Source of the DNA: Gammaproteobacteria bacterium | GTDB lineage: Bacteria; Pseudomonadota; Gammaproteobacteria; Burkholderiales; Rhodocyclaceae | Assembly: GCA_038322845.1 (NCBI GenBank) | Contig: JBBQGH010000003.1 | Location: 2,130 to 66,129, forward strand | Direction: 5' to 3' | Length of the DNA: 64,000 nt | Shown here: positions 17,835 to 52,911 of the stretch, in pieces | Numbering within the stretch: position 1 is the stretch's first letter | Layout: each line of letters starts with the position of its first letter | Translations under genes and position numbers: made by a program | The notes under the pieces: model-generated | The model's database searches: none | What the model was told of the DNA's origin: nothing | Seen by the model: the letters and a program-made list of their open reading frames with translations, nothing else

Positions 17835-17956
17835 GCCGCGGATGACGCGGAGAAGCGCGGATGATGTTGAAGAAAGCCAGCGCAGGCTGCCCTTTGACGA
17901 TCTCACATTGCTGTGCAGGCCTCGGCCTTGGCATGTCATCCGTGTTCATCCGTGGC
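17835..17956. repeat. 9-nt-period inverted-array element, degenerate copy
   Basis: Left GCCGCGGATGACGCGGAGAAGCGCGGATG; right CATCCGTGTTCATCCGTGGC. Confidence 0.6.
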
Positions 17957-17964
17957 AAAAAATA

Positions 17965-20040
17965 TTATTTGAATCGATACTCCAACGTCATCATGGCATT
18001 GCGCTCTGGCAAGGGATAGGCATTGTAGCGGCCGGGGGTGAAGGCGCTCTTGACGGCGTAGTTGTAGTACTTGCGGTCGAAGAGGTTGTTCGCGGCGAGC
18101 GCAAGAGTGAAATCACCGACGTCATGGCTCAGCTTGAGATCCGTCACCGTGTAGGACGGGATCATGATGCCCAGGTCGTTGGCTTCGTCGTTATCCATGT
18201 ACTGGCGACCGACGTGGTTCACCGCGAGCGTCAAGCGGGTTTGCAGCTGCATGAGCCAGGAAGCACCGAGATTCAGCTTGTGGCGCGGCACCAGCGGCAC
18301 CGTCTTGCCTTCGATGACATTGTTGGACAGCGCGAAACCGCCGCCGACAAACTCGCCGCCGCGAAAGCGCGCCTGCGTGTAAGTGTAGGCGGCATTGAGC
18401 GTGAGGGCTTGGCTGGCCTGTGTCTTGGCTTCCAGTTCCAGCCCGCGACGCCGCGAGGGCGGCAGATTGGTGTTGCCCACGCCCGAGGTGAAGGGATCGA
18501 GATGAATCTCGTCCGTCATATCGGTGACGAAGAGACTGGCCTGAACCTGGGTCGCGCCCTGACGATAGTCGATGCCGATTTCGCGGGTGTTGGCAGTCTG
18601 CGCCTTCAAGAGCTGGAACTCGTTGCTGAACATGGCCGACTGTTCGTAGATTTCGTCCACATTGGCGAATCGAAAACTGCGCGCGAATTTGCCGATCAAG
18701 GCCCAGCTCGGTTGCCACTGGTAGCGCAGGCCCAGCTCAGCGGCATGCTGGTGTGCCGTCTGCGACGCGGTCGGCGCGCCAGAACCAAAAACGCCACCCG
18801 GTGCGGCGGGGTCATAACTGTCGGTCGCGCCGATGCTCTGGCGCTCGGCGCGGGCGCCGGCGAGGAGGCTCAGGCTATCGGTGATCTGCGAGATGTCCTG
18901 CGCATAGAAGCCGGTGTTGTATTGCGTGGCGTTGATGCGGGTGTATGGCTGGTTGCTGTGCGAGGGCTGATCGGAGATGCCGCGTTGATAGCGCCAGCGC
19001 TGCCAGTCCAGGCCTACCACCAGATTGCCTGGACCGCCGAACAGAGTGTGCGCAATGCGGGCGCGCGGAGCGAGGGCCAGCATGTCCATATCCGTCTGGG
19101 TGTAGAGCGGAAAGCCGCTGAAATCGTAATAGGAGGTTTGCGGCCGATTGCGGTAGGACAGGTCGACATTGATTTCGCCAAAGGCCATGTTGTGGCTGTA
19201 TTCGAGCGCAGCGCGATTGCCATCTCGCGTGGCGTAATCCAGCGGCATCGCCGTGCCGCGCCGGTCCGTTTCGAGCAGGTTGATGCCCAGGCCGTTGTCC
19301 ACCAGGCGCGGGCCGGGCAGACGCACATTCTGCCTGTCGGCGCCCAGGCGCAGCCCGAATTGGGCGTTATCCATCGGCCAGCTCAGCTTGGTTTCGACGT
19401 TTGACTGGCGGTTGCGGTTGTTGTCGCGATAGCCGTTGCTGTCGTAATAGCTGGACACCACCGAGATGCCGAAGCGATCCCAGAATTTGTTGGCGTAGAG
19501 CTGCCCCTGGTAAGTGTCGTAGCTGCCGGCCGCTACGGAAAGCTGCGCCACATCGCCGATACGCGCGGGGGAACGGGTGATGATATTCACCACGCCGTTC
19601 GTCGCGCCGCCGCCGAATAGCACCGCGCCGCTACCGCGCAGTACTTCGATGCGTTCGATGGCCAGCATAGGAACCGCCGACCATTGCACGCCCGCCAAAT
19701 CAATATCGCTGATGCGGCGGCCATCCAACAACACCAGGGTATTCGAGCCGCCGGTCGCGCCTGAACCGCGCAGATCGATGCTGGCGCTCGCGGCGTTGTT
19801 GCCGAAAAGATCATGCACGACGATGCCGGCTTTTTCCGACACCAAATCGGGCACTGTCCTGGCGGCGCTATTGCGGCTGTCGTCCTGAGTGATGATGCTG
19901 ACGTTGAGCGGCTTGTCACGAAAGGTATCGGTAAAACGTGTGCCGGTAATGATCGTTTCATTGGTCTCCGCCAGTGCGGCGGAAACCAAAAACGAGGACA
20001 GCAGCGCGGGCAGCGCAATGCGCCGGATGAATGGATGCAT
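17965..20040 (-). CDS. btuB: TonB-dependent cobalamin receptor (BtuB-like)
   Basis: Signal peptide, TonB-box-like ETIITG, plug motif IERIEVLRGSGAVLFG, C-terminal YRF; preceded by a B12 riboswitch. Confidence 0.85.
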   Translation of the reverse strand: MHPFIRRIALPALLSSFLVSAALAETNETIITGTRFTDTFRDKPLNVSIITQDDSRNSAARTVPDLVSEKAGIVVHDLFGNNAASASIDLRGSGATGGSNTLVLLDGRRISDIDLAGVQWSAVPMLAIERIEVLRGSGAVLFGGGATNGVVNIITRSPARIGDVAQLSVAAGSYDTYQGQLYANKFWDRFGISVVSSYYDSNGYRDNNRNRQSNVETKLSWPMDNAQFGLRLGADRQNVRLPGPRLVDNGLGINLLETDRRGTAMPLDYATRDGNRAALEYSHNMAFGEINVDLSYRNRPQTSYYDFSGFPLYTQTDMDMLALAPRARIAHTLFGGPGNLVVGLDWQRWRYQRGISDQPSHSNQPYTRINATQYNTGFYAQDISQITDSLSLLAGARAERQSIGATDSYDPAAPGGVFGSGAPTASQTAHQHAAELGLRYQWQPSWALIGKFARSFRFANVDEIYEQSAMFSNEFQLLKAQTANTREIGIDYRQGATQVQASLFVTDMTDEIHLDPFTSGVGNTNLPPSRRRGLELEAKTQASQALTLNAAYTYTQARFRGGEFVGGGFALSNNVIEGKTVPLVPRHKLNLGASWLMQLQTRLTLAVNHVGRQYMDNDEANDLGIMIPSYTVTDLKLSHDVGDFTLALAANNLFDRKYYNYAVKSAFTPGRYNAYPLPERNAMMTLEYRFK

Positions 20041-20193
20041 GTAAGACTCCCTTTAAGCCGGCGCGCGTCCCCGCTGCCGGACTATGGCAAAAAAACGGAA
20101 CGCAGCAGGGGAGTCGAGATCGGTGTGGGCGAGTGCTAACTAAAAGGCCCATAGCCGGTCGCCACACCCCCGTGGCGTTTCCGTACGTGTCTA

Positions 20194-20402
20194 TGCAGGC
20201 CGGTATCCGGGCTCGCGAGTTTTGGTACGTCGCCTTCCCATGATTGCTCACAGTGGCGAAGGGTCTGGAAACCCTAATGACGTACCCGCACTCGCTGACC
20301 GTTGCGGGGGCAGCTGAGGCTTTGCCGAGGGGGTTGATCCCTCGACGCACCTCATTCCCGTTTAACCCATCGGCTGGAAAGCCGGTTGGGCACCTTGCAC
20401 AG
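20194..20402 (-). promoter_or_regulatory. Cobalamin riboswitch
   Basis: Minus strand shows AGGTGC...TTAAACGGGAATGAGGTGC...CTGCCCCCGCAACGGT...GCCACTG...GGGAAGGC...AGCCCGGATACCGGCCT (B12 box) upstream of btuB. Confidence 0.92.
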
Positions 20403-20565
20403 GATGCCGTGCGGTGAGCTGCACGGCGGCCGGATTATAGCCTTCAAATCGCCGCTTGCGGGATGGCTCACTAAGCCGCGTGAGTACGCCCCCGCAATCA
20501 CAAACAACTTTCAAAGTAAGACGTTATTGCTTGACCTCAAAAGTCTTTTCGGCTAGTTTTCCGGG

Positions 20566-20760
20566 ATGGACAGCGAACTCTTCGCCCTCGAAGAAAGAAT
20601 TGAGCAATTCATTGCCTTGTGCCAGAACCTGCGCAGCGAGAATCAGGATCTGCGCACGCGTGTGGCCACCCTGGAAGGCGAGCGCATGCGCTTGACCCAC
20701 AAAATAGATGCCGCCTGCGGCCGGCTGGAAGGCCTCATGGAACGCCTGCCGGAACAATGA
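20566..20760 (+). CDS. Small coiled-coil protein, ZapB-like / TIGR02449-like
   Basis: MDSELFALEERIEQFIALCQNLRSEN heptad pattern; directly upstream of zapA. Confidence 0.75.
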   Translation: MDSELFALEERIEQFIALCQNLRSENQDLRTRVATLEGERMRLTHKIDAACGRLEGLMERLPEQ

Positions 20761-20764
20761 GCTG

Positions 20765-21082
20765 ATGAACGCCAAGGCAAAATCCCCGGATACGCTCGAC
20801 ATTGTCCTGATGGGTCGAGAATACCGCGTCGCCTGTGTCCCCGACGAGCGCGAAGCCCTCAAAACGGCGGTGGCCTACGTCGATGAACGCATGCGCGACT
20901 TGACCGAGAAAACCAAATCCACCGGCGAACGGCTGGCCGTCATGACCGCCCTGAATCTCGCTCACGAATTACTTTCGATCAAACTGCCAGGCGGGTTTGA
21001 CATGCAAGAGTTCCGGCGTAGAATCGGTTCCATGCAGTCGCGGCTTGATGAAGCCATGGCCAGCCAGGAACAGCTCTTCTAG
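20765..21082 (+). CDS. zapA: Cell division protein ZapA
   Basis: IVLMGREYRVAC...AVAYVDERM...AVMTALNLAHELL; zapA-ssrS synteny. Confidence 0.88.
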   Translation: MNAKAKSPDTLDIVLMGREYRVACVPDEREALKTAVAYVDERMRDLTEKTKSTGERLAVMTALNLAHELLSIKLPGGFDMQEFRRRIGSMQSRLDEAMASQEQLF

Positions 21083-21144
21083 CAGTACCGGACCAGCATC
21101 CCCGCTCCGTCGTCACTCCATCGTTTTTCCCCAGCCGCGCAGAA

Positions 21145-21322
21145 ATTCCCCTGCGGTGTTCGCCTAGGCCATATATTCCTTGAACCAATACGTTGGCATT
21201 GGCCGCGAACCACAGCGTCACTATTGTGAGCGTCCCTTGTTGGACGAACCTACGGTGACCGGAACGTGGCCACTCTGAACCTTAGGTTCAGGATGCCGGC
21301 CTAACGGCACAGGCGGGGGATC
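21145..21322 (+). ncRNA. ssrS: 6S RNA
   Basis: Terminal TCCCCTGC / GCGGGGGA pairing, CCTTGAACC and CTGAACCTTAGGTTCAGGATGCC motifs; canonical position after zapA. Confidence 0.9.
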
Positions 21323-21329
21323 TACAAAA

Positions 21330-21365
21330 GAAAAACGCGGCCATCGCAAGATGCCGCGTTTTTCT
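21330..21365. terminator. Bidirectional intrinsic terminator
   Basis: AAAAACGCGGC-CATCGCAAGAT-GCCGCGTTTTT between convergent ssrS and the cyclase gene. Confidence 0.8.
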
Positions 21366-21408
21366 TTATAGCCCGAGGAATCGAGCGGCAGACGGGAAGG
21401 CTGAATGC

Positions 21409-22302
21409 TTAGCCGACGTTGAACTCCACGACTTCCTTGCTGCCGTCGGCGTGGGCGTGGCCGAAGCTGATAAGGCCGTGCCCACGCAGGATGACTTCTT
21501 CACGTTTGAGAGAGAACTCGGCCTCGCCATCGAACTTCACGTAAGTGCCGTTGGTGCTTTGGTCTATCAAGACAAACTTGTCGCGGCGACGTTCAATTTT
21601 GGCGTGGCTGCGCGAGGCGCGCTTGTCGGCAACAACGATGTCACTGGCCGGGTCGCGGCCCAACGCGAGCAGGCTGTTACGCGTATCCAAAACCCAGTCG
21701 AGGCTATTGTGATGCACCGTCATGCGCACCGTCGGTGCCTGCGGCGGCACAATACCGGCAGATTTCATGGTCAGTTCATCGGATTCCTGCCAGAGCACCT
21801 CGACGACGTGAATGTCGTCGGCCTTACCCTTCACCGAAAGGGCGTCGATGGCGCGGGTGGATAGGCGTAGCAACTCTGGCAACGCTTCTAGGGTGTCGGC
21901 ATTGGTGATGATCTGGCCAGCCTTGGCAAATCCGGACATGCGCGCCGCCGTATTCACCGTATCGCCGAAGACGTCGTTGTTGTCCTCTATGGCGGGGCCG
22001 AAGTGAAAGCCTATGCGTATGGCCAGTTTGACCCCCCGTAGTGGCGGCAAGTCGTCAATGCGCAACTGCATTTCACAGGCGGCCTGAAAGCCGGCTTCGG
22101 CGCTGTCGAAGGCAGCCATCACCTCATCGCCGATGGTCTTGACGACTCGACCGTGATACTGCTCGGTGGTGCGCGACATGCGGTTAATACAACGCTCGAC
22201 AGCGCGCAACGCCTCCTTGTCGCCCAGCTTTTCATAAAGCTGGGTGCTGCCGGCAACATCGGCGAACAACACACAGAGATTGCGTTCGGTCTTTTTTTTC
22301 AT
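21409..22302 (-). CDS. Class III adenylate/guanylate cyclase with C-terminal FHA domain
   Basis: LFADVAGST, KTIGDEVM and DVFGDTVNTAAR motifs; FHA core GRD...SRSHA...DQSTNGT. Confidence 0.87.
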   Translation of the reverse strand: MKKKTERNLCVLFADVAGSTQLYEKLGDKEALRAVERCINRMSRTTEQYHGRVVKTIGDEVMAAFDSAEAGFQAACEMQLRIDDLPPLRGVKLAIRIGFHFGPAIEDNNDVFGDTVNTAARMSGFAKAGQIITNADTLEALPELLRLSTRAIDALSVKGKADDIHVVEVLWQESDELTMKSAGIVPPQAPTVRMTVHHNSLDWVLDTRNSLLALGRDPASDIVVADKRASRSHAKIERRRDKFVLIDQSTNGTYVKFDGEAEFSLKREEVILRGHGLISFGHAHADGSKEVVEFNVG

Positions 22303-22425
22303 TGCTTATGCCGATCCAGACAGGGGGTTACGGTGATGGAGTCGCGGTTGAGGCGGTTGAGGACTTGCATCTTGTTTGCATTTGCGCGGTGAGCCGGGCA
22401 CTCCAATCTTCTGGCGCAGATCATA

Positions 22426-23346: not shown

Positions 23347-23350
23347 GGTT

Positions 23351-24097
23351 TCACAAGGCTATGCTACGACCGCCGTCTACCGCAATAATTTGCCCGGTGA
23401 CGTATGGCGCGTCAGCCAGAAGAAAGCGGACGGCACGGGCAACGTCGGCGGGTTCGCCACCTCGCCGCAGTGGCGTGCGCGTTAGAATTTTCGCCTGCGC
23501 CGCGTTATCGAAGGTGCCGTCCTCCGGCCAGAGTATCGGTCCGGGCGCGACGCCATTCACCCGCACGTCCGGCGCCAGGTCGAGGGCCAGGGCGCGTGTC
23601 AGTCCGACCAACCCCGCCTTGGCGGTACAGTACAGCGCGTAGTGATGCAGCGGCAACTCCGCGTGGATGTCAGTGATATTCACGATCGCGCCCCGCGCCA
23701 CGGCCAGATGCGCCGCCGCCGCCTGCGCCAGCATCAGCGGCGCTTTGAGGTTGGTGCCGATGAGATCGTTCCATTCCGTCTCGCCGATGCGGCCTATGGG
23801 CGTGGCATAGAAGCTGGAGGCGTTATTCACCAGCGCGTCGAGGCGGCCGAAATGCCCCACCACATCTGCCACCAGCTTAGGCAACTGCGCCGTGTCCAGT
23901 AGATCCGCCTGAAAGGCCCGTGCAGAGCCGGCACGCGCGGCATTGCACTCCGCCACCAGCGCCTGGGCTTCTGTCGCGGCACCGCGATAGTGCAAGGCTA
24001 GCGTGGCGCCCGCCGCATGCAAGGAGCGTGCGATGGCGGCGCCGATGCGTTTAGCCGCACCGGTGATTAGCACCACTTTGCCTGTCAGGTCGCTCAT
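23351..24097 (-). CDS. Pteridine reductase (SDR family)
   Basis: [23 protein letters not shown] and YCTAK motifs. Confidence 0.85.
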
Positions 24098-24155
24098 CGC
24101 ATATCCGCAACATCAGCCGCCAAGAGAATTGCGGATTCTAGCGGATTCGGCCACC

Positions 24156-29274: not shown

Positions 29275-29293
29275 GCGGTTGAAGAAAAAATTT

Positions 29294-29446
29294 TGACGCG
29301 GATTTCGCAGATGAACGCCGATTCTCTTGATTTGTCGTTCTCGCGTAAGCGGGGACCCCGCGGCGTTCGCCACAATCTACAGCTCGCCGGACCTGGCTCG
29401 GCGAAAAACCAAAAGAAATCCGCGTTCATCTGCGAAATTCGCGTCA
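29294..29446. repeat. 9-nt-period inverted-array element with 30-bp terminal inverted repeats
   Basis: TGACGCGGATTTCGCAGATGAACGCCGATT ... AATCCGCGTTCATCTGCGAAATTCGCGTCA (28/30 complementary). Confidence 0.8.
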
Positions 29447-29451
29447 GATTT

Positions 29452-31440
29452 TTAGATTTGTTCCTTATTCAACATCGCACGCATCTGCGCTAGGCGCGCG
29501 GTGCCGGTAGCATGATCCGCCGGCTGGTCCTGGCCACGGCCGGATATCTTGAGATCGTCGCCCATCTCAGCAATAAAACGGCTAGGTTCGCATGCGCGCC
29601 ACTCCTTGCCACTCTTGCGCTTTTCGCAATAGCTGATGTGCAGGCTGCGCTCGGCGCGGGTGATCCCCACGTACATTAAGCGACGCTCCTCCTCGATGCC
29701 GCCGGCCTCAACCGATTCGCGATGCGGCAGCAAGCCCTCTTCCATGCCGACCAAAAATACGTGCTTGAACTCCAGACCCTTCGCGGCATGCAGGGTCGCC
29801 AGTTGTACTTGGTCTGCGCTCTCATCGGATTTGTCGAGCAGCGAAATCAGTGCGACGGTTTGCGTGAGCTCTGCCAGCTTCTTGTCGTCGTCTTCCCCCT
29901 TCTTCGAGAGCCATTCGATGAAATCACGCACGTTGGCCCATTTGGTTTCCGCTTCGCGCAGGTCGAAGCTGTCGAACAACCAGGCTTCATAGCGGATGGC
30001 GTTTAGCAAGTCATCTAGCACCTGGCGCGCCGGCTCGCGCTGGGCGCGCCATTCCAGCTTGTTAATAAACACGCCAAATTCAAGCAAGGCTTCGAGCTGC
30101 TTCGGATTGACATGACTCGCCGCGCCGGCTTCGAAGGCGGCGGCAAAAAGAGAGAGATGGCGCGTGCCAGCGTAGCGGCCAAGCGCTTCCAGTGTCGTGC
30201 TGCCGACACCACGACGCGGCGTCGTGACGGCGCGGATGAAAGCCGGATCGTCATCCGCATTGGCAATCAGGCGCAAGTACGCAATGAGGTCCTTGATTTC
30301 CGCCTTCTCGAAAAACGACTGGCCGCCGGACAGCGCGTAGGCAATTTTCTGATTGCGCAATTGCTGCTCGAAGCCGCGCGCCTGATGGTTGCCACGATAG
30401 AGAATGGCGTAGTCACCCCATTTGCCGCGATGCTCGAAGTGGTGCGCGACGAGCTTCATCACCACCTGCTCCGCTTCCTGCTCATTGTCGCGCGCCGCCG
30501 TTACCTGGATCAGATCTCCCTGGCCGTGCTCGGACCACAGCCGCTTCTCGAAAAGCTTGGTGTTGTTGCCGATGAGCGCGTTGGCGGCCTTGAGGATGCG
30601 CGTCGTAGAACGGTAGTTCTGCTCCAGCTTGATGACTTTAAGCTGAGGATAATCCGTTTGCAGCGTGCGCAGATTTTCCACATCTGCGCCGCGCCAGGCG
30701 TAGATGGCCTGGTCGTCGTCGCCCACGGCCGTGAAAGCGGCGCGCGGGCCGGCCAGTTGCCGCAGCAACTGATACTGCGTGCGGTTGGTGTCCTGATACT
30801 CATCGACCAGCAGATAACGCAGCCGGCCCTGCCAGCGCGTCAGCGCTTCGCCGTCTTGCTCGAAGAGGCGCACCGGCAAGCGCAACAAGTCGTCGAAATC
30901 CACTGCCTGATAAGCGCGCAAAGCCTGATCGTAGCCCGTATAGAGGCGTGCGGCGGCGTGTTCCAGTTCGTCTTGAGCCAGCGAGAGAGCAGCTTCCGGC
31001 TCAACAAGTGCGCTCTTCCAGCCGGAGATGCGCCACTGCAAAAGTTTCACGCGGCCTTTGTCGGCGTCCTTGGCGAGATCGGCAATGATGCCCGCACTGT
31101 CCGCAGCATCAAAAATGGAGAACTGCGGCTTCAAACCCAGCAGCTTGGCTTCCAGCCGCAGGATACGCATGCCCAGCGAATGGAAGGTCGAAACGTTGAG
31201 CGACGAGAGCGACTTGCCGGGCAGGAGCTTGCTGGCGCGATCGCGCATTTCCTTCGCCGCCTTGTTGGTGAAGGTGATGGCGGCGATGTGCGCGGGATTA
31301 AAGCCGCACTGCTCGATGAGATAAGCGACCTTCTGCGTAATGACACGCGTCTTCCCCGAGCCGGCACCGGCCAGCACCAGCAAAGGACCATCGAGATATT
31401 TGACTGCTTCGCGCTGCGGGGGATTCAGTGTGGCTAACAT
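29452..31440 (-). CDS. rep: ATP-dependent DNA helicase Rep (UvrD family)
   Basis: LAGAGSGKTRVIT, LVDEYQDTN, GDDDQAIY and EEERRLMYVGITRA motifs. Confidence 0.9.
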   Translation of the reverse strand: MLATLNPPQREAVKYLDGPLLVLAGAGSGKTRVITQKVAYLIEQCGFNPAHIAAITFTNKAAKEMRDRASKLLPGKSLSSLNVSTFHSLGMRILRLEAKLLGLKPQFSIFDAADSAGIIADLAKDADKGRVKLLQWRISGWKSALVEPEAALSLAQDELEHAAARLYTGYDQALRAYQAVDFDDLLRLPVRLFEQDGEALTRWQGRLRYLLVDEYQDTNRTQYQLLRQLAGPRAAFTAVGDDDQAIYAWRGADVENLRTLQTDYPQLKVIKLEQNYRSTTRILKAANALIGNNTKLFEKRLWSEHGQGDLIQVTAARDNEQEAEQVVMKLVAHHFEHRGKWGDYAILYRGNHQARGFEQQLRNQKIAYALSGGQSFFEKAEIKDLIAYLRLIANADDDPAFIRAVTTPRRGVGSTTLEALGRYAGTRHLSLFAAAFEAGAASHVNPKQLEALLEFGVFINKLEWRAQREPARQVLDDLLNAIRYEAWLFDSFDLREAETKWANVRDFIEWLSKKGEDDDKKLAELTQTVALISLLDKSDESADQVQLATLHAAKGLEFKHVFLVGMEEGLLPHRESVEAGGIEEERRLMYVGITRAERSLHISYCEKRKSGKEWRACEPSRFIAEMGDDLKISGRGQDQPADHATGTARLAQMRAMLNKEQI

Positions 31441-31474: not shown

Positions 31475-31633
31475 CACAAATACACGCAAATACACGCGGA
31501 TGAACGCGGATTAAAAGCGCTGGCGAATTTCAGTGGTTATTAATTTCGGTGATTACGTCGGGGCTGGAACGGCCTATCAAACAACATCGCCTTTATCTAA
31601 GTTCATCCGCGCTTATCTGCGTCAATCTGCGGC
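31475..31633. repeat. 9-nt-period inverted-array element between divergent rep and tlpA
   Basis: Left CACAAATACACGCAAATACACGCGGATGAACGCGGATT; right TTCATCCGCGCTTATCTGCGTCAATCTGCGGC. Confidence 0.7.
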
Positions 31634-31669
31634 AAGGTTTTTACTACAAAACGCCAGACACCCGTCGAG

Positions 31670-37675: not shown

Positions 37676-37754
37676 TGTATCATTCCCGCGCAGGCGGGAA
37701 TCCAGCGACGTGCCACCCCGAAGACACTGGAGCCCCACCTTCGCGGGGACGACA
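37676..37754. repeat. Inverted REP pair (REPIN-like, CGTC-type hairpins)
   Basis: TCATTCCCGCGCAGGCGGGAATCCAG ... CTGGAGCCCCACCTTCGCGGGGACGAC. Confidence 0.75.
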
Positions 37755-37795: not shown

Positions 37796-38851
37796 TCAGC
37801 GCTGAACCACAAAGGGCTTGAAGTCCAGCGTATCGCGTATCTTGTTGGCGACCCGCTTGGCTTCTTGCGCATCCGCGAAAGGCCCGAGCTGGACGCGATA
37901 CGTGCCGCCCTTGGGCTGTATCTGCAAGGTGCCGGAAAGCCCGGAAACCTGCTCCGCGACGCGAGCGCGGAAACTCTCGGCGTTGTCCTGACTAGCAAAA
38001 GCGCCCAGTTGCAGGAAGATGCCGCGCAGCTCGGCCACCGTAGGCACCGGTGGTTCGGGCGTAGGCGCGTCAGACTTGGCGTCGATCTGCGCGGCGGCCA
38101 TGGTGAGCTCGGCGAGCGGATCGGCCGCCAGCAGCGGATTACTGCGGGCGCCGGCGAGCAGCGTATCACCCGGCTGCACCACTTCGACTTCCACCATCGC
38201 GCTGCCGTTGCCCACATAGCCGAGCTTATAGGCGGCTGTGTAGGACAGATCGATTAGGCGGCCAGAGTGAAAAGGTCCGCGATCATTGACGCGCACGATG
38301 ACGGATTTTCCATTGGCGATGTTGGTGACGCGCACGTAGCAGGGTATAGGCAGCGTGGTATGCGCCGCTGTCATGCCGTACATGTCATAGATTTCGCCGT
38401 TGGAGGTCTTCTGGCCGTGGAATTTTCGCCCATACCAACTGCCGATGCCGCTCGCCTTGTAGGGCTTCAACTCCTTCATCGGCACGTAATCGCGGCCCAG
38501 CACCGAGTAGGGCTTGGTCGTGGCGCGGTTCAAGGGCTCGACCCGCGGCTCGGCGTCGGGGATGGCGTCGATATTTTCCGGCGCGTTGTCACCCGGACCG
38601 TCATCCATGTAATAGCCACCGCCTTTTTTGAGCGTGTAGAGCGGCTTGGATAACGCCACTTTCGGCGCAGGCGCTTTCACCACCGGTTCAGGCGCAGAAG
38701 GCCGTGGCAGGGGCGAGCTACAGGAGGCCAGCAAGAACAAGGCAAAAGCAGCCGCGGATTGCACGGATAAACGCGGATGATCCAAAAAAATTCCGCGTTT
38801 ATCTGCGCAATCCGTGCAATCCGCGGCAAAGACTTTTTTGATTTTGTTCAC
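37796..38851 (-). CDS. rlpA: Septal ring lytic transglycosylase RlpA (DPBB + SPOR)
   Basis: GIGSWYGRKFHG, TAAHTTLP, VRVNDRGPF and SPOR LQLGAF motifs; GTG start overlaps the rodA stop; lipobox LASC at residues 41-44. Confidence 0.9.
   Translation of the reverse strand: MNKIKKVFAADCTDCADKRGIFLDHPRLSVQSAAAFALFLLASCSSPLPRPSAPEPVVKAPAPKVALSKPLYTLKKGGGYYMDDGPGDNAPENIDAIPDAEPRVEPLNRATTKPYSVLGRDYVPMKELKPYKASGIGSWYGRKFHGQKTSNGEIYDMYGMTAAHTTLPIPCYVRVTNIANGKSVIVRVNDRGPFHSGRLIDLSYTAAYKLGYVGNGSAMVEVEVVQPGDTLLAGARSNPLLAADPLAELTMAAAQIDAKSDAPTPEPPVPTVAELRGIFLQLGAFASQDNAESFRARVAEQVSGLSGTLQIQPKGGTYRVQLGPFADAQEAKRVANKIRDTLDFKPFVVQR
38751..38827. repeat. 9-nt-period palindromic element inside the rlpA 5' coding region
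   Basis: Perfect 18-bp terminal inverted repeats GCCGCGGATTGCACGGAT / ATCCGTGCAATCCGCGGC, with inner AAACGCGGA / TCCGCGTTT. Confidence 0.85.
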
Positions 38852-44611: not shown

Positions 44612-44899
44612 ATGTCGCTGGATCACGACCAAATACGACGCATCGCCCATCTTGCCCGCATCGAACTTGCGCCCGCCGAGGTCGAAGAAACCCGCCTACG
44701 CCTGAACGGTATCTTTGCGCTCATCGAAGAAATGCAGGCGGTCGACACGCTTGGCGTCGAACCGATGGCCCATGCACAAGATCTGGCCCAGCGCCTGCGC
44801 GACGACCGTGTCACCGAGACGGATCACCACGCGGAGTTTCAGAAAATCGCACCCGAAGTCGACGCGGGTCTTTACCTGGTGCCCAAAGTGATCGAATAA
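44612..44899 (+). CDS. gatC: Glu/Asp-tRNA amidotransferase subunit C
   Basis: IAHLARIEL...LYLVPKVIE. Confidence 0.93.
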   Translation: MSLDHDQIRRIAHLARIELAPAEVEETRLRLNGIFALIEEMQAVDTLGVEPMAHAQDLAQRLRDDRVTETDHHAEFQKIAPEVDAGLYLVPKVIE

Positions 44900-44967
44900 G
44901 ACACCGCGGATAACTAAACTAAACGCGAAGCATTGCTCTATCCGCGCTCATCTGCCTACTCCGCGTC
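44900..44967. repeat. Degenerate 9-nt-period element at the gatC-gatA junction
   Basis: CCGCGGATAACTAAACTAAACGCG ... ATCCGCGCTCATCTGCCTACTCCGCGTC. Confidence 0.55.
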
Positions 44968-44980
44968 AAAACTTCGACCC

Positions 44981-47898: not shown

Positions 47899-47901
47899 GC
47901 T

Positions 47902-48570
47902 TTAGCGCGGCCGCCGATCGGCGGCCGACGGCTCGGCCGCAACCGTTGCAGGCTTCTTGCCACCCTTAAGCTCGCGGTAGCGCGCCAATTCGTCGTCGTA
48001 CTTAGCCTTGACTGCGGCTATGTCTTTTTGCTTAGTGTCTATGGTGGACTGGAAGGTTTTTCGCTCATCCTCGTTCTCGCGCATGGCGTTTCTCAGCTGA
48101 AACGGCAACGTTTTTTTCTTGTAGAACTCGGCCTCTTCGTTGAGCTTCACCTGCTTTTTCGCCACGTCGTCCAGCTTGACTTTCGAATCCTCGATAGCTT
48201 TTTGTAACTCGCTCACGGCGCGATTGCGCATGTAGTCGATGTCTTGCTCGGTCGCGTAGGTGGCTAACAAAGCCCGGTTCTTGTGGTCTTGTTCGAGCTT
48301 TCTCTGCGCTTCTTCCTTGGCCTGCTTGGCCTCTTCTTCCTTTTTAGCGAGCTGTTCGGCTGTTAGAGGGGCGTCGACGCGTTTGACCGTGATGCCACGC
48401 TCGTTGATTTCCCGGTAAGCCTTGCCATAGCAGGCCGGTGGAAGGACATCGGAACAAACCTGTTTGCCCTTATCATCGGCGCAACAGAAAGTTGACCCTG
48501 CTTGCGCTGCAGTGGCGAACAGACTGGAAAAAACAAAAACGGTAAAGGCTGAGCCTAGCCTTGGTTTCAT
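47902..48570 (-). CDS. Exported hypothetical protein with coiled-coil C-terminus
   Basis: Signal peptide, [13 protein letters not shown] Cys motif, charged helical region. Confidence 0.7.
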
Positions 48571-49208
48571 GGTGTAGTCCCATATTGTTGTCTATAGCGG
48601 GTGACCTCTTGCAACTTCTGCGCCAGCTCGGCGCGACCAGCAAGATAAGCGAGCAGATCATCCAGCGTGGCGACCGCAATGACCGGTAAACCATAGATGT
48701 CGCGCACTTCTTGTACCGCCGATAGGTGCCCCTGGCCGCGCTCCATGCGGTCGAGCGCAATCACCACACCGCAAGGCTGAGCACCGGCGGCGCGGATCAG
48801 CCCGACGGACTCACGCACCGAGGTGCCCGCGGAGATCACATCATCAATGATCAGCACCCGTCCCGCCAAGGGCGCACCGACCAGCGTCCCGCCTTCGCCG
48901 TGATCCTTGGCTTCCTTGCGGTTGAAGGCGAAGGGCAAATTGTGCCCTTTTTGAGCAAGCGCGATGGCCGTACCGGCGGCGAGCGGTATGCCCTTGTAAG
49001 CCGGGCCAAACAGCATGTCGAAAGCCAGGCCCGACGCGATTATGGCTTCGGCATAGAAGTTGGTGAGGCGATGTAACGAGTGGCCGTCGTTGAACAAGCC
49101 GGCGTTGAAAAAATAGGGGCTCAGCCGTCCCGCCTTGGTGGTGAATTCGCCGAAACCCAAAACGCCCTGCTCTACCGCAAACTCGATAAACTTGCCGCTC
49201 AAACTCAT
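48567..49208 (-). CDS. pyrE: Orotate phosphoribosyltransferase
   Basis: [32 protein letters not shown] and [11 protein letters not shown] motifs. Confidence 0.95.
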
Positions 49209-49252
49209 CTTGCACTCACTTTGAACAGTCATTTTTAAAATTCGGATTTACG

Positions 49253-50035
49253 ATGCGTATCATAACCTTGAACCTTAATGGCATACGCTCGGCAGAGCGC
49301 AAAGGCTTTTTTCCCTGGCTGGCCAAGCAGGAAGCCGACATCGTCTGCCTGCAAGAACTCAAAGCGCAAGAGGCGGACATGACGCCCGAGATGCTGACGC
49401 CGCCGGGCTACCAGGGCTATTTCCACTACGCAGAGAAGAAGGGCTATAGCGGCGTGGGGCTTTACACGCGACGCACGCCGAAGCGTGTTGTCGTAGGGCT
49501 AGGCGTGCCGGAGATCGATGCCGAGGGCCGCTATCTGGAATTGGTCTACGACAACTTCTAGGTCATCTCGCTCTATCTGCCCTCCGGCTCCAGCGGCGAT
49601 CACCGCCAAGCAGCGAAGTTCGTTTTCCTGGAGCATTTCTTCACGCATCTGAAAAAGCTGCGTAACGCAGGCCGCGAGATCGTGATGTGCGGCGACTGGA
49701 ACATCGCACACCGCGAGATTGATTTGAAAAACTGGAAGAGCAACCAGAAGAACTCCGGCTTTCTGCCCGAGGAACGCGCCTGGTTAACCCGCGCCTTCGA
49801 CGAGTTAGGTTGGGTCGACGTCTATCGGCAAGTGCATCCCGAGACTATGGGCGACGCCTACACCTGGTGGTCGAATCGCGGGCAGGCCTGGGCGAAAAAT
49901 GTCGGCTGGCGCATCGATTATCATATCGCCACTCCTGAACTGGCCGAAAAGGCGCGCCAAGCGGCCATCTACAAGGAGGAGCGTTTCTCCGATCACGCGC
50001 CCTTGACGGTCGATTACGACTACACCATCGTTTGA
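49253..50035 (+). pseudogene. xth: Exodeoxyribonuclease III interrupted by an in-frame TAG
   Basis: One frame from NLNGIRS / LQELKA / GYSGV to GDWNIAH / GWRIDY / SDHAP, with a single TAG at 49559-49561. Confidence 0.8.
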
Positions 50036-50110
50036 TTTCGCTAATTGCGTTTCGCCGTGAAAATCGGTAGCCTTCATTCATAAATATCGTTATCAACCTG
50101 GAGAGCCGTC

Positions 50111-50422
50111 ATGGATCAAGTAAGTCCGATCACCAAAGGAAAACTCGTCGCCGATTTCAAAGTAGTGGTCGCCGACGCCGAAGAATTGTTGCGCGCCACC
50201 GCGGGCCAGGCCGGCGACAAGCTCGGCGACCTGCGCGCCAAGTTGCAAGATCATCTCAACAACGCCAAGAACAGCCTGGCTGACGCGCAAGCCGCTGTGG
50301 TGGAAAAAACCAAAGCCGTCGCCAGTGCCACGGACGACTATGTGCATGACTACCCTTGGCGTTCCATAGGCATAGCCGCCAGCATCGGCCTGGTCATCGG
50401 TCTCTTGATCGGCCGTCGTTAA
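50111..50422 (+). CDS. DUF883 / ElaB-YqjD family protein
   Basis: DDYVHDYPWRSIGIAASIGLVIGLLIGRR C-terminus. Confidence 0.88.
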   Translation: MDQVSPITKGKLVADFKVVVADAEELLRATAGQAGDKLGDLRAKLQDHLNNAKNSLADAQAAVVEKTKAVASATDDYVHDYPWRSIGIAASIGLVIGLLIGRR

Positions 50423-50432
50423 GTCGCCCATC

Positions 50433-50822
50433 ATGGGTGTGAGCAGCGAAGCCGGCGCAGCCGGACTGCTGGCGCGAGTGCGAGGTGTGGGTGCCACGGC
50501 GTTTGCCATCCTCAAGACGCGCCTTGAACTGTTAGTCACCGAAGTCGAAGAAGAAAAACTTCGGCTAGCCAGCATGCTGGCTTATGCCGCCGCGGCGTTT
50601 TTCTTCCTAGGCTTCGGCGCGATTTTCCTCGCTCTATTCGTTACCGTGTTGCTGTGGGATAGCCAACGTTTGCTGGCCTTGGGCATATTCACTGCGGTCT
50701 TTCTGACCGTCGGCGCGGTAGCCACGTTCGCGGTTGTCCGTTTGGCGCGGCGAGGGTCACAACTCTTTGCCGCCAGCATGGCTGAATTGGCGGAAGACTG
50801 CGAAGCTTTGCGCAACGATTAG
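50433..50822 (+). CDS. YqjE / phage-holin-family membrane protein
   Basis: TRLELLVTEVEEEK motif plus two TM helices; synteny with yqjD. Confidence 0.8.
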   Translation: MGVSSEAGAAGLLARVRGVGATAFAILKTRLELLVTEVEEEKLRLASMLAYAAAAFFFLGFGAIFLALFVTVLLWDSQRLLALGIFTAVFLTVGAVATFAVVRLARRGSQLFAASMAELAEDCEALRND

Positions 50823-50836
50823 TCGATACTCGCCCT

Positions 50837-51136
50837 ATGAACCAGCGCCTAGTAGAACTCGCTCTGAAGAAACAGCGCTTGCAAATTCAAGCGGCCACAC
50901 AACGCTTGCAGATGGCGCAGCAGTTGGAGGTTTTCGCCCCTGCATTCAGCGCTATGCAAGGCCTGCAGCGTATTGGTGCATGGGTGCGCGGCCACAGCCC
51001 CTTGCTCGTCGTCGCCGGTGTCGTCTTGCTTGTAGCGCGGCCCAAGGCGACGTTCCGCTGGGTACGTCGTGGCTTTGTGGCTTGGCAGTTGCTGCGTCGG
51101 ACGCGCGGTGCCTTGCAGGCCATGATTCCCCTGTAA
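50837..51136 (+). CDS. YqjK-like protein
   Basis: LALKKQRLQIQAATQR and HSPLL..VLLVARP; synteny. Confidence 0.75.
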   Translation: MNQRLVELALKKQRLQIQAATQRLQMAQQLEVFAPAFSAMQGLQRIGAWVRGHSPLLVVAGVVLLVARPKATFRWVRRGFVAWQLLRRTRGALQAMIPL

Positions 51137-51141
51137 GGCTC

Positions 51142-51489
51142 ATGCCACAGAATTATTATTCTCGCCCTGCCAGTCCTTTGCGTGGTCTGATCAAGGCGCA
51201 GCAACACCAGCGCGCACGCATGGTCTCGGAAATTCTCAAGATAGATGGCTTAATGCCGCTGCTCATGAAGCAGCGTAATGGCTGTCGCCGGAGCAGCGCC
51301 GAGCGACGTGAATTGCGTGAGGAGTTGCGCGCGCTACCGCTGCATTCGCCTTACCTCTCCCCTTATCGCTTTACGGGGTCTTTGCCCGGCTCAGTGATGT
51401 TGCTACCATTTCTGGCCTGGTGGCTAGATCGTCGGCGCACCCGACGCAATGATGAACCCGTGCGCAACACAAAAGAAACGCAGCGCTGA
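51142..51489 (+). CDS. Hypothetical protein
   Basis: GLMPLLMKQRNG...LPFLAWWLDRRR; follows the yqjK-like gene. Confidence 0.55.
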   Translation: MPQNYYSRPASPLRGLIKAQQHQRARMVSEILKIDGLMPLLMKQRNGCRRSSAERRELREELRALPLHSPYLSPYRFTGSLPGSVMLLPFLAWWLDRRRTRRNDEPVRNTKETQR

Positions 51490-51500
51490 AATCTCCGATT

Positions 51501-52790
51501 TTACCGTCCGAGGCCCAAGGCGGAGGATTCTTCACCCGTCCGCCAGGGTGCTACTCTAAATAGCAACAGCATGCCCGGCACCGCCAGCAGGGCGCAGAGC
51601 AGAAAGAAATTTGTCCAGCCCATTTGTTCCACGATCCAGCCTGTGGTGGCGTTGCCGAAGGTGCGCGGCACAGCGGCGAGACTGGTGAACAAAGCGAACT
51701 GGGTAGCCGTGTAGAGCGGATGCGTGGTGCGGGCGATGTAGGCGACAAAAGCGGCCGTACCCAGGCCCACCCCCAGCGCTTCAACGCCGATCACCAGCGC
51801 CAGTTGCAGCAGATGCTCGGGTTCCACCAGGGCGCGCGGCCCCAGCCAGGCCAGCCAGGCGAAACCAAAGATGGCCAACAATTGCACGGCGCCGAACAAC
51901 CACAGCGCGCGATTAATGCCCAGCCGCACCATCCACAAGCCGCCCAGCAAGCCACCAATCACGCTGGGCCACAAGCCAGCGTTCTTCGCCACCAGGCCGA
52001 TTTCCGATTTAGAAAAACCCATGTCGAGATAGAAGGGCGTGGCGAGTGCCGTGCACATCGAATCACCCAGCTTGTAAAAAAAAATGAAGGCCAGCACCAA
52101 GAGGGCGCTGCGCCAGCCGCTACGCGTGAGGAATTCGCGGAAAGGTTCGACGACCGCGGCGCGCAAGGTGCGCGGTGTCTCCGCCGCCAGCGTCGGCTCG
52201 CGCACCGAGAGCGTGAGTATCATGCCGGGCAGCATGAACAGTGCCGTGATGGCGAAGACCTGCAGCCACGGCAGATGGTCGGCCAGAATCAAGGAAAGCG
52301 AGCCGGGCACCAAACCCGCCACCTTGTAGGCGTTCACGTGCACGGCATTGCCCAGGCCCAGTTCTTCGTCTCGCAACAACTCGCGGCGGTAGGCGTCCAG
52401 CACGATGTCCTGCGTGGCGCTCAAGAAGGCCAGGAGTACGGTGAGCCAGATAATCCAATCTAGTTGATCGCGCGGCGAAAGCGCACCTAGCGCGGCAATG
52501 GCGGCGAACAAGCCCAACTGCGTCGCCAGCATCCAGCCACGTCGACGCCCCAGCAGTGGCAGCGCATAGCGGTCCAGCAAGGGTGACCAGAGAAATTTCC
52601 AGGTGTAGGGAAACTGAATCAGCGCGAACAAGCCGATGGCCTTCAAGCCTATGCCCTCGCTGCGCAGCCAGGCCGGCAACAAATTGAGCAGAAGGTACAG
52701 CGGCAAGCCAGACGAAAAGCCCGTGAACACGCAAATCAGCATGCGCCGATTGAGCAGGGCGGCGATCGGCGAGGGCTTGTCGTTGGGCAT
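51501..52790 (-). CDS. ampG: Muropeptide MFS permease AmpG
   Basis: GFSSGLPL, PYTWKFLWSPLLDR, SATQDIVLDAYR and ATQFALFTSL motifs. Confidence 0.92.
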   Translation of the reverse strand: MPNDKPSPIAALLNRRMLICVFTGFSSGLPLYLLLNLLPAWLRSEGIGLKAIGLFALIQFPYTWKFLWSPLLDRYALPLLGRRRGWMLATQLGLFAAIAALGALSPRDQLDWIIWLTVLLAFLSATQDIVLDAYRRELLRDEELGLGNAVHVNAYKVAGLVPGSLSLILADHLPWLQVFAITALFMLPGMILTLSVREPTLAAETPRTLRAAVVEPFREFLTRSGWRSALLVLAFIFFYKLGDSMCTALATPFYLDMGFSKSEIGLVAKNAGLWPSVIGGLLGGLWMVRLGINRALWLFGAVQLLAIFGFAWLAWLGPRALVEPEHLLQLALVIGVEALGVGLGTAAFVAYIARTTHPLYTATQFALFTSLAAVPRTFGNATTGWIVEQMGWTNFFLLCALLAVPGMLLLFRVAPWRTGEESSALGLGR

Positions 52791-52807
52791 GGGAAATTAA
52801 AAGCAAA

Positions 52808-52911
52808 GCAGCCGCGGATTTCGCCCCGCAGGAAGTCCCCTTGAGGGGCGCGGATGACACGGATTTTCTTCTTTGGATTTATCCGCGTTCATCCGCGAAA
52901 TCCGCGGCTGC
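52808..52911. repeat. 9-nt-period palindromic element carrying a nested insertion
   Basis: Perfect 17-bp inverted repeats GCAGCCGCGGATTTCGC / GCGAAATCCGCGGCTGC; left arm interrupted by CCCGCAGGAAGTCCCCTTGAGGGG. Confidence 0.8.

What the first reader, a model, noticed from the sequence alone, without database searches (positions are those of the whole stretch)
17835..52911. Dispersed family of 9-nt-period inverted-array elements with no transposase in the window
Seen: six loci (17835-17956, 29294-29446, 31475-31633, 38751-38827, 44900-44967, 52808-52911). Each has a left arm of roughly 9-nt units like CGCGGATGA(A) and an inverted right arm like (T)TCATCCGCG, around unrelated cores of about 10-90 bp. 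That is about one per 10 kb, at core-gene junctions. Arms within a copy usually match each other better than they match other copies. Inference: an active or recently active non-autonomous element whose arms co-evolve as hairpins and whose core is variable cargo. I recall similar ATCCGTGTTCATCCGTG-type arrays flanking GxxExxY and four-helix-bundle genes in other bacteria, but cannot verify that here. The mobilising enzyme is unknown and is the best candidate for an undescribed system.
Basis: partly seen in the sequence, partly recalled or inferred. Interest (0 to 1): 0.68.

Follow-up and report, generated by a model that had tools for sequence, protein, structure and literature searches.

The report
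Orphan word-array hairpin insertion elements
The six loci are old, gene-less copies of a small palindromic insertion element whose arms are three evenly spaced CGCGGAT "words"; the same arms occur in many bacterial phyla, where they frame an uncharacterised small nuclease gene (GxxExxY) that this genome lacks.

Summary
All six loci have the described anatomy: paired words occur 7 times in the window against 0.03 expected. They belong to a family of about 32 paired elements plus about 12 lone or decayed arms in this 2.6-Mb draft genome.

They are insertions. Relatives have empty sites at the same gene junctions. A sister species carries six 97-100% identical 165-bp copies flanked by 5-bp target duplications, one checked against an empty site.

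The same word array occurs in at least 119 places across at least 8 phyla. Arms with the same layout frame one clade of GxxExxY (PF13366, PD-(D/E)XK) genes. On a tree of 111 proteins, the arm word follows the protein phylogeny down to a single base.

The window's genome has no GxxExxY gene, and no genome of its genus has the matching subclade. Copies here are diverged, and one is shared with a species at about 82% nucleotide identity. They are therefore orphan relics, not a demonstrably active family.

The mobilising enzyme is still unproven; the GxxExxY nuclease is the best candidate. REP/RAYT membership is rejected. In print I found the kind only as unexplained "predicted regulator sites" in Geobacter metallireducens (2009).

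The parts
17822..17972 (.). Element 1. Left words at 17837-17843, 17846-17852 (decayed) and 17856-17862. Core of about 75 nt. Right words ATCCGTG at 17938-17944 and 17948-17954. The outer A/T-rich segment overlaps the stop codon (17965-17967) of the TonB-dependent receptor gene. The fecCD-type permease gene lies on the other side.
   Evidence: DNA fold z = -2.1
29281..29460 (.). Element 2. Left words at 29297-29303, 29306-29312 and 29316-29322 (decayed). Right words at 29418-29424, 29428-29434 and 29438-29444 (decayed). The 95-nt core holds a decayed NTS/SRM-like repeat. It sits at a convergent junction between a cytochrome c gene and a Rep/UvrD helicase gene, and its outer segment overlaps the helicase stop codon (29452-29454).
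   Evidence: fold z = -1.7
31475..31645 (.). Element 3. Left words at 31495-31501 and 31505-31511, preceded by decayed units. Right words at 31605-31611, 31615-31621 and 31625-31631. It lies in the divergent region between the helicase start (31440) and a redoxin gene start (31670).
   Evidence: fold z = -2.3
38740..38845 (.). Element 4, the best preserved. Left words at 38753-38759, 38762-38768 and 38772-38778. Core of 18-22 nt. Right words at 38800-38806, 38809-38815 and 38819-38825. It lies between the rodA stop (38848) and rlpA. It is absent from the orthologous junction of the nearest relative, G016.
   Evidence: fold z = -6.8
44900..44971 (.). Element 5, decayed. It fills the gatC stop (44897-44899) to gatA start (44972) junction. 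Words at 44905-44911 and 44940-44946, plus decayed units. A diverged copy sits at the same site in G016. The site is empty in about 11 other species of the genus.
   Evidence: fold z = -1.4
52800..52920 (.). Element 6. Left words at 52813-52819, 52849-52855 and 52858-52864, with a roughly 27-nt mini-hairpin (52822-52848) inserted between words 1 and 2. Right words at 52881-52887, 52891-52897 and 52900-52906. It lies between the metW stop (52920) and the start of an MFS transporter gene (52790).
   Evidence: fold z = -7.0

Best explanation
The six loci are gene-less, mostly decayed copies of a small foldback insertion element (MITE-like).

Each end is a terminal inverted repeat of about 42 nt. 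It has an outer A-run/T-run segment of 13-18 nt, followed by three CGCGGAT heptamers spaced 9 and 10 nt apart. That spacing is about one helical turn, so the words lie on one face of the duplex.

Shown:
- The elements are insertions at tight gene junctions.
- In a sister species the element inserted at AT-rich pentamers that often include a stop codon, and duplicated 5 bp.
- Arms with the same word class and layout frame one clade of GxxExxY (PF13366, PD-(D/E)XK-fold) genes across phyla.
- The heptamer sequence follows the phylogeny of that protein.

Inferred:
- The clade-II GxxExxY protein reads the phased words and supplies the cutting step that spreads gene-bearing and gene-less copies. This would resemble RAYT with REP, or Ssn with NTS repeats.
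- This genome lacks that gene, so its copies are immobile orphans kept at junctions because they are harmless there. Any present role, such as a transcript-end hairpin, is secondary.
For: - Enrichment and family size.
- Empty or otherwise occupied orthologous sites: gatC|gatA in 26 genomes; rodA|rlpA in G016.
- Recent burst in G001: six copies of 165 bp at 97-100% identity. They are flanked by the direct repeats TTGAA, TTTAT and TTAAA (exact) and ATTAT/ATGAT (near). An internally deleted copy is flanked by TTAAA.
- The empty site of the C34 copy in G017, G015, G008, G002 and G011 holds a single pentamer that overlaps a stop codon.
- Exact pattern CGCGGAT-N3-CGCGGAT-N5-35-ATCCGCG-N3-ATCCGCG: at least 119 stretches in Acidobacteriota, Chloroflexota, Planctomycetota, Verrucomicrobiota, Gemmatimonadota, Omnitrophota and Proteobacteria.
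- The outer 13-15 nt are conserved and complementary within a copy.
- 9 of 9 fetched loci (6 proteins) of 68-96% identical homologues of the G001 GxxExxY protein carry CCGCAGAT-TA-CGCAGAT-NNN-CGCAGAT arms.
- 38 of 40 hairpin-bearing genomes have GxxExxY genes. At least 24 of them have one framed by C[AG]C[AG]GAT arms.
- Tree of 111 proteins: a deep split with SH-aLRT support 100. All 37 GAT-type words fall in clade II and none among the 45 rows of clade I. GGAT and AGAT subclades are resolved.
- G001 is the only genome of the genus with a clade-II gene, and the only one with a recent burst.
Against: - No GxxExxY gene in the window's genome, which is 90% complete.
- No GGAT-subclade gene in any of 28 genus genomes, although five carry CGCGGAT hairpins.
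- G001's gene has CGCAGAT arms, while its burst elements use CGCGGAT.
- Only 1 of 119 cross-phylum 8-kb loci has a GxxExxY gene near the hairpin.
- No target duplication is detectable in 113 cross-phylum copies: 8 against 9.9 expected. None could be resolved in the window's copies.
- Linked arms and gene would co-diverge even without any functional link.
- No biochemical data exist for PF13366.
- A lone nuclease cannot by itself explain strand joining.
Confidence: 0.6

Rival explanations
1. These are ordinary MITEs moved in trans by a conventional (DDE-type) transposase that has not been found. The GxxExxY genes are passengers that landed in the hairpin loops, and they co-diverge with the arms only because they are linked.
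For: - A 5-bp target duplication at AT-rich sites is typical of DDE transposition.
- The burst in G001 uses CGCGGAT words, although that genome's only clade-II gene has CGCAGAT arms.
- Hairpins persist in four genus genomes without any clade-II gene.
- Loops demonstrably accept other DNA, namely nested NTS/SRM-like repeats.
Against: - No larger element with the same ends exists in G001; a search with the 165-bp copy finds only short elements.
- None was found in G000.
- All six words of a cassette stay alike while differing between protein clades down to one base. That needs a constraint which changes together with the enclosed protein.
- 60-95% of hairpin-bearing genomes from other phyla encode the family.
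Confidence: 0.2
2. These are functional cis-elements rather than mobile DNA. They could be arrays of binding sites for a host DNA-binding protein, as annotated in Geobacter metallireducens as 'predicted global regulator binding sites'. Or they could be RNA hairpins acting as terminators, RNase III sites or transcript stabilisers at gene ends.
For: - 5 of 6 window copies abut a stop codon.
- The 9-10 nt phasing puts the words on one face of the helix.
- A-runs and T-runs flank the stem on both strands.
- Two copies fold very strongly.
- The 2009 annotation of paired tandem repeats as regulator sites (PMC2700814).
Against: - Presence or absence at orthologous junctions between species, and unrelated palindromes at the same junction.
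- Target duplications and identical multi-copy bursts.
- Copies inside operons (gatC|gatA, rodA|rlpA), where a terminator would be harmful.
- One copy lies in a divergent promoter region.
- Four of six copies are decayed, with weak folds.
- No Rfam family matches.
Confidence: 0.12
3. These are REP/BIME elements spread by a REP-associated tyrosine transposase (RAYT).
For: They are intergenic, palindromic, dispersed and gene-less. The genome has two PF01797 (Y1 transposase) genes, and one lies about 200 nt from a copy.
Against: - The Y1 gene on contig C49 is an IS200-type TnpA with its own hairpin.
- The RAYT-like gene on contig C4 is framed by a different repeat (GGCCAGGCTCGAATT).
- Neither is framed by CGCGGAT arms.
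- PF01797 presence does not follow the hairpins in the genus.
- 5-bp target duplications are not made by HUH/Y1 enzymes (established knowledge of IS200/IS605).
- There is no GTAG-type head.
Confidence: 0.03

Closest known systems
REP/BIME (REPIN) elements with RAYT transposases
   Same: Short intergenic palindromes in tens to hundreds of copies. Gene-less copies far outnumber the single enzyme gene, which is itself framed by the repeats. Orphan repeats occur in genomes that have lost the gene.
   Different: The arms here are three phased heptamers plus an A/T-rich outer segment, not a single 20-40 nt palindrome with a GTAG head. The partner gene is a PD-(D/E)XK-fold GxxExxY protein, not an HUH/Y1 enzyme. 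Insertion makes a 5-bp duplication.
Ssn (GIY-YIG) single-strand nucleases and their NTS/SRM hairpin repeats (Chenal et al. 2025, PMC11893778)
   Same: A small nuclease gene is framed by the hairpin repeat it recognises. Repeats are dispersed in the genome and across phyla, and there is a strong genome-level association between repeat and gene (searches compared with 61, 92).
   Different: The nuclease fold and the repeat are different. Here the repeat is built from tandem words, and insertion with target duplication is seen. No biochemistry exists. NTS/SRM-like repeats are separately present in this genome, some nested inside the CGCGGAT elements.
Bacterial MITEs (for example Correia elements of Neisseria)
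   Same: Size of 70-240 bp, terminal inverted repeats, a target-site duplication (in G001), no ORF, foldback potential, and location at gene junctions.
   Different: No transposase-bearing parent with the same ends is known. The inverted repeats are internally repetitive (three phased words). The only gene-bearing relatives carry a 125-aa nuclease.
'Predicted global regulator binding sites', classes 1-3, of Geobacter metallireducens (Aklujkar et al. 2009, PMC2700814)
   Same: Paired sites on opposite strands, each made of 3-5 tandem repeats of 7-9 nt, with a variable distance between them and tens of copies. Class 2 (TCTCCGTS) is the reverse complement of the CACGGAG word, which frames clade-I GxxExxY genes here.
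   Different: A different word. The authors read them as regulator sites and reported neither a link to GxxExxY genes nor insertion behaviour.
ORF-bearing intervening sequences of 23S rRNA (S23p four-helix-bundle gene; Coxiella, PMC4990558)
   Same: A small gene sits between inverted arms. In this genome the single four-helix-bundle gene is framed by inverted arrays of a 7-nt word, GGTTTCG, and gene-less arrays of that word also occur.
   Different: A different gene family, word and period (7 nt, not 9-10). It is not the family of the six loci.

Membership tests
REP/RAYT (REPIN) | A RAYT (PF01797) gene framed by the same repeats in the genome or in close relatives | tested here: not met
   Two PF01797 genes are present in G000. 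One is IS200-type and the other is framed by an unrelated repeat. There is no correlation with the hairpins in the genus.
REP/RAYT (REPIN) | A single imperfect palindrome with a conserved GTAG-type head, and insertion without target duplication | tested here: not met
   The arms are three phased heptamers. 5-bp duplications occur in G001.
MITE | Terminal inverted repeats, small size, no ORF, many copies | tested here: met
MITE | Target-site duplication and empty sites | tested here: inconclusive
   Met for the 165-bp subfamily of sister genome G001. Empty sites are shown for window loci 4 and 5. No duplication could be resolved in the window's copies, and none was detected in 113 cross-phylum copies.
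MITE | An autonomous parent with the same ends that encodes a transposase | tested here: not met
   No such element in G001 or G000. The gene-bearing relatives carry only a GxxExxY nuclease gene.
Word-array-armed GxxExxY cassettes (no formal description found in the searched library) | Inverted arrays of two or more phased heptamer words with the layout outer segment - word - 2 nt - word - 3 nt - word | tested here: met
   compared.
Word-array-armed GxxExxY cassettes (no formal description found in the searched library) | A PF13366/TIGR04256 gene between the arms | tested here: not met
   No match in the window's genome. The cores are 6-179 nt and hold no ORF. The loci are gene-less derivatives.
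Word-array-armed GxxExxY cassettes (no formal description found in the searched library) | The word is shared with the arms of a specific protein clade | tested here: met
   C[AG]CGGAT words frame the GGAT subclade of clade II, 22 of 27 rows.
Ssn / NTS-SRM repeats | Match to the NTS/SRM consensus CGTCATTCCCGCGMAVGCGGGAATCYRG | tested here: not met
   The CGCGGAT arms do not match. Separate NTS-like repeats (39 copies) exist in the genome, and some lie inside element cores.
Geobacter metallireducens class 2 'regulator sites' | Three tandem repeats of TCTCCGTS(Y), paired on opposite strands | tested here: not met
   Same architecture, different word.

The most novel reading that the evidence does not exclude
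Clade-II GxxExxY (PF13366) proteins would be sequence-specific readers and cutters of phased heptamer arrays. Together with those arrays they would form an undescribed class of minimal mobile element, about 450 bp with the gene and 70-170 bp without. It would insert at AT-rich pentamers overlapping stop codons with a 5-bp duplication. It would be found from Proteobacteria to Acidobacteriota and Chloroflexota, and would leave orphan arrays like those in this window. This would be a third nuclease-plus-repeat partnership, beside RAYT-REP and Ssn-NTS.
Probability: 0.3. Interest if true: 0.85.

Novelty: new variant of a known kind. Interest (0 to 1): 0.62.

Why it matters
Small intergenic palindromes are common and mostly unexplained. 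Only two families have a proven enzyme partner: REP with RAYT, and NTS/SRM with Ssn.

This analysis ties an unexplained repeat architecture to one uncharacterised nuclease family. The architecture was noted in 2009 in Geobacter and appears in many phyla. The nuclease family has no solved structure by sequence search and almost no literature. The link holds with single-base resolution between the repeat word and the protein clade. Real insertion events are also shown.

If the protein does read the words, it would be a compact, naturally diversified set of sequence-specific DNA binders or cutters with known cognate sites. It would also explain many short "tandem repeats at gene ends" in genome annotations.

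For this particular genome the practical message is modest. The six loci are harmless relics that should be annotated as repeat elements, not as coding sequence or regulators.

Tried and rejected
- **Four-helix-bundle link:** the genome's only TIGR02436 gene is framed by inverted GGTTTCG arrays at a 7-nt period, not by CGCGGAT. It is a parallel family, not this one.
- **REP/RAYT:** rejected.
- **Known RNA families:** Rfam finds only a cobalamin riboswitch and 6S RNA in the window, and nothing on the six loci.
- **Terminator and promoter scans:** uninformative. They pick up only fragments of the arms.
- **Target duplications in the window's copies:** the ends are too decayed to place. In 113 cross-phylum copies flanking 5-mers match no more often than in permuted pairs, 8 against 9.9. 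The duplication evidence therefore rests on the G001 subfamily alone.
- **ORF-bearing versions or larger composites in G000:** none found. Lone arms are decayed partners or duplicate contigs.
- **GxxExxY gene next to cross-phylum hairpins:** only 1 of 119 loci. The association holds at genome level, not at locus level.
- **Solved structures and literature for PF13366:** no PDB match by sequence. Only catalogue or incidental mentions.
- **DnaA-box resemblance:** TTATCCGCG resembles the DnaA box TTATCCACA. I considered this and set it aside, because sister word classes such as CACAGAG and CACCAAG have no such resemblance. It was not tested.


Full report
**1. The observation**

I read all six loci. 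Each has a left array of CGCGGAT-like heptamers and an inverted right array of ATCCGCG-like heptamers around a core.

- Two heptamers at 10-nt spacing (YRCRGAT-N3-YRCRGAT) occur 7 times in the window against 0.03 expected from dinucleotide-preserving shuffles. All 7 lie in the named loci.
- The single heptamer occurs 41 times against 23.7 expected.
- In the whole draft genome (2.63 Mb, 84 contigs, 58.8% G+C) the same architecture recurs, always in the same polarity: words on the top strand at the left, complements at the right.
- The arm consensus is AAAAnnnTTTGC-CGCGGAT-TN-CGCGGAT-GAA-CGCGGAT. A second subtype starts TTTGA-CGCGGAT and is spaced 10+10 nt.
- A profile built from the arms finds 32 paired elements and about 12 lone or decayed arms. 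A few are counted twice because the assembly holds near-duplicate contigs.

The density of one per 10 kb is local to the window.

**2. Context in the window**

Pfam assignments of the neighbouring genes and the gatC ORF place the elements at tight junctions of every kind.

| Locus | Junction |
|---|---|
| 1 | Behind the stop of a TonB-dependent receptor gene |
| 2 | Convergent junction of a cytochrome c gene and a Rep/UvrD helicase gene |
| 3 | Divergent region between that helicase gene and a redoxin gene |
| 4 | rodA stop to rlpA |
| 5 | Exactly fills the gatC stop to gatA start |
| 6 | metW stop to an MFS transporter gene |

- Five of the six abut a stop codon within about 10 nt. In loci 1 and 2 the outer A/T-rich segment overlaps the stop codon.
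- Folded as single strands, loci 4 and 6 are very stable hairpins (z = -6.8 and -7.0). The other four are weak (z = -1.4 to -2.3), which fits decay.
- No Rfam family matches any of them.

**3. They are insertions**

I collected the gatC|gatA junction from 26 genomes of the genus.

- In about 11 genomes the genes overlap or are 5-29 nt apart, so the site is empty.
- Only the window's genome and its nearest relative G016 carry a CGCGGAT-type element there, and both copies are decayed. G016 has 86% GatC identity and about 82% nucleotide identity over 16 kb of synteny.
- Other lineages carry other small palindromes at the same junction:
  - a hairpin of GTGAGCG words at a 7-nt period (G014, G020);
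  - a CTCACTC-word hairpin (G015);
  - a REP-like pair, GTCGGGCTTCAGCCCGAC (G001, G006, G007, G017, G018, G021).
- The rodA|rlpA element (locus 4) is absent from G016.

Empty sites therefore exist, the junctions have been hit repeatedly, and at least one window copy predates a species split.

**4. Recent mobility in a sister species**

The strict pattern occurs in only 5 of the 25 same-genus genomes among the 41 searched. G001 holds six copies of one 165-bp element at 97-100% identity, on six different contigs.

- Their ends are CCTRGAAAAAGCACTTGC-[three words] and [three words]-GCTGAAATGAGTTTTTCAGA.
- The five copies with both flanks show these flanking repeats: TTGAA, TTTAT and TTAAA exact, ATTAT/ATGAT near, and one copy with a diverged right end (L202) and no duplication.
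- An internally deleted copy is flanked by TTAAA on both sides.
- For the copy on contig C34, the joined flanks find the orthologous site in G017 (85% identity), G015, G008, G002 and G011. That site holds no element and a single pentamer (TTAGA in G017). The pentamer overlaps the stop codon of a 499-aa ORF.

This is a true 5-bp target-site duplication at an AT-rich target. It also offers a simple reason why copies sit right at stop codons in a G+C-rich genome.

The limits of this evidence:
- I could not place the ends of the window's own copies well enough to see duplications.
- In 113 copies from other phyla, flanking 5-mers match no more often than in permuted pairs.
- In the window's genome no two copies share a unique core.
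- Three copies do share a derived mini-hairpin between words 1 and 2. That shows a variant arm was propagated at some time.

**5. The same words across phyla**

- The hits come from Acidobacteriota, Chloroflexota, Planctomycetota, Verrucomicrobiota, Gemmatimonadota, Omnitrophota, Xanthomonadales, Burkholderiales/Rhodocyclales and a Rhizobium genome.
- By my own arithmetic, fewer than 0.001 matches are expected by chance for 28 fixed bases.
- One hit is a contig of G015, titled Rhodocyclales bacterium, which names the neighbourhood of the window's genus.
- In these copies the 13-15 nt outside the outer word have the same A-run/T-run/GC-or-GA consensus. They are complementary within a copy well above permuted pairs (z = 13.5 for positions 1-3, 7.0 for positions 4-15, none beyond 15).

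The element is therefore about 42 nt per arm.

**6. The gene-bearing relatives**

Earlier notes of this scan pointed to GxxExxY and four-helix-bundle genes, and I tested both.

*Four-helix-bundle genes.* The window's genome has one four-helix-bundle gene (TIGR02436). It is framed by inverted arrays of GGTTTCG at a 7-nt period, so it belongs to a different family.

*GxxExxY genes in the genus.*
- The window's genome has no GxxExxY gene (TIGR04256/PF13366).
- In the genus, 14 of 28 genomes have GxxExxY genes, each framed by inverted word arrays such as CACAGAG, CACGGAG, CACCAAG or CACGGCG.
- Many of these sit at the same trpE|trpG junction.
- One gene, in G001, has CCGCAGAT-TA-CGCAGAT arms with the 9+10 layout of the window's elements.

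*Homologues of the G001 protein.* All nine fetched loci (six proteins) of 68-96% identical homologues carry the same CGCAGAT arms. These come from Sulfuricella, Accumulibacter, Sideroxyarcus, a bin labelled Anaerolineae, and others. Several sit between type III mod and res genes, and one between sdhA and sdhB.

*Genomes from other phyla.*
- 38 of 40 genomes reached through their CGCGGAT hairpins have GxxExxY genes, 1-11 each.
- I examined about 90 of these genes.
- At least 24 of the 40 genomes have one framed by C[AG]C[AG]GAT arms.

*Tree of 111 proteins.*
- There is a deep split with SH-aLRT support 100.
- Clade I has 45 rows: 37 words ending in AG and no GAT-type word.
- Clade II has 66 rows and holds all 37 GAT-type words.
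- Inside clade II, a subclade of 27 rows has 22 C[AG]CGGAT words. Another subclade of 11 rows has only C[AG]CAGAT words and includes the G001 gene.
- The label needs 9 changes on the tree against about 31 in shuffles.

The heptamer thus follows the protein to a single base, across phyla and across insertion sites. Linked DNA would co-diverge anyway. However, all six words of a cassette stay alike while differing between clades, and that needs a constraint that changes with the enclosed protein.

**7. What speaks against the nuclease as the mover**

- The window's word (CGCGGAT) belongs to the GGAT subclade, and no genome of the genus has such a gene.
- G000, G015, G016 and G021 hold hairpins without any clade-II gene.
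- The G001 burst uses CGCGGAT although its gene has CGCAGAT arms.
- Only 1 of 119 hairpin loci has a GxxExxY gene nearby.
- Against that, G001 is the only genus genome with a clade-II gene and the only one with a burst. This is suggestive, but it is a single case.
- A conventional transposase acting in trans remains a serious rival. I found none with these ends, but the assemblies are only 83-90% complete.

**8. Other families considered**

- REP/RAYT is rejected. The two Y1-transposase genes of the genome are an IS200 and a RAYT-like gene framed by an unrelated repeat, and HUH enzymes make no duplications.
- The Ssn/NTS system (PMC11893778) is the best analogy for how such a pair may work.
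- NTS-like repeats are present in this genome in their own right (39 copies). They account for the long cores of several CGCGGAT elements, including a decayed one in locus 2.
- In print, the architecture itself appears only as unexplained "predicted global regulator binding sites" of Geobacter metallireducens (PMC2700814).
- GxxExxY/PF13366 has almost no literature and no solved structure by sequence search.

**9. Verdict**

The loci are orphan, mostly decayed, gene-less members of a widespread family of word-array-armed insertion elements. The gene-bearing form of that family carries a clade-II GxxExxY nuclease.

- Shown: insertion behaviour, including a 5-bp duplication in a sister genome, and covariation between word and protein.
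- Inferred: the enzymology, and any present function.

Noticed in passing
It has four GGGTTTC units at a 7-nt period, a short core and a decayed inverted arm. It sits between two minus-strand genes. The same word frames the genome's only four-helix-bundle (TIGR02436) gene at C12:44245-44565, and about 12-15 gene-less arrays of it are dispersed in the genome.
   Followed up: partly
window 37683-37712; genome-wide: A repeat matches the published Neisseria NTS / Ssn-related motif (GTCATTCCCGCGCAGGCGGGAATCCAGCG). About 39 copies occur in the draft genome. Several are nested in the cores of CGCGGAT elements (contigs C10, C20, C32, C38, C41, C51, and a decayed one in window 29323-29417). I did not search for a GIY-YIG ssnA gene.
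   Followed up: partly
gatC|gatA junction, loci L155-L180: In 26 genomes of one genus this operon-internal junction is either empty or filled by at least four unrelated small palindromic elements. It is a repeatedly hit insertion site.
   Followed up: yes
trpE|trpG junction, loci L018-L022, L026-L029, L031, L033: A GxxExxY cassette with CACAGAG arms is fixed between trpE and trpG in at least 11 species of the genus. It comes in two protein types with 8-nt and 10-nt word spacing. In G001 the gene is broken. This points to old, vertically inherited cassettes.
   Followed up: partly
loci L183-L190 (Sulfuricella, Accumulibacter and others) and G001:C24: The CGCAGAT-armed GxxExxY cassette sits between the mod and res genes of type III restriction-modification operons in several families. 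It is sometimes followed by a zeta-toxin/AAA_33-like gene.
   Followed up: no
window 52822-52848; C38:~6680; C51:~8085: A roughly 27-nt G+C-rich mini-hairpin (GCCCCGMAGGAAGTCCSCTKGVSGGGGC) is inserted between words 1 and 2 of one arm in three copies. A comparable mini-hairpin (GGGTCCCTTCGGGA) sits between words in copies from other phyla (L063, L076, L276).
   Followed up: partly
window 20182-20412 and 21145-21323: Rfam finds a cobalamin riboswitch upstream of the TonB-dependent receptor gene next to element 1, and a 6S RNA gene.
   Followed up: no
G000 contigs C41/C51, C28/C70, C42/C48: Near-duplicate stretches on different contigs, which may be strain variants or contamination (4% by the table). 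They slightly inflate repeat counts.
   Followed up: no
window 37796-38851: The long rlpA ORF called from a GTG runs through element 4. The true start may lie downstream of the element. Not examined.
   Followed up: no
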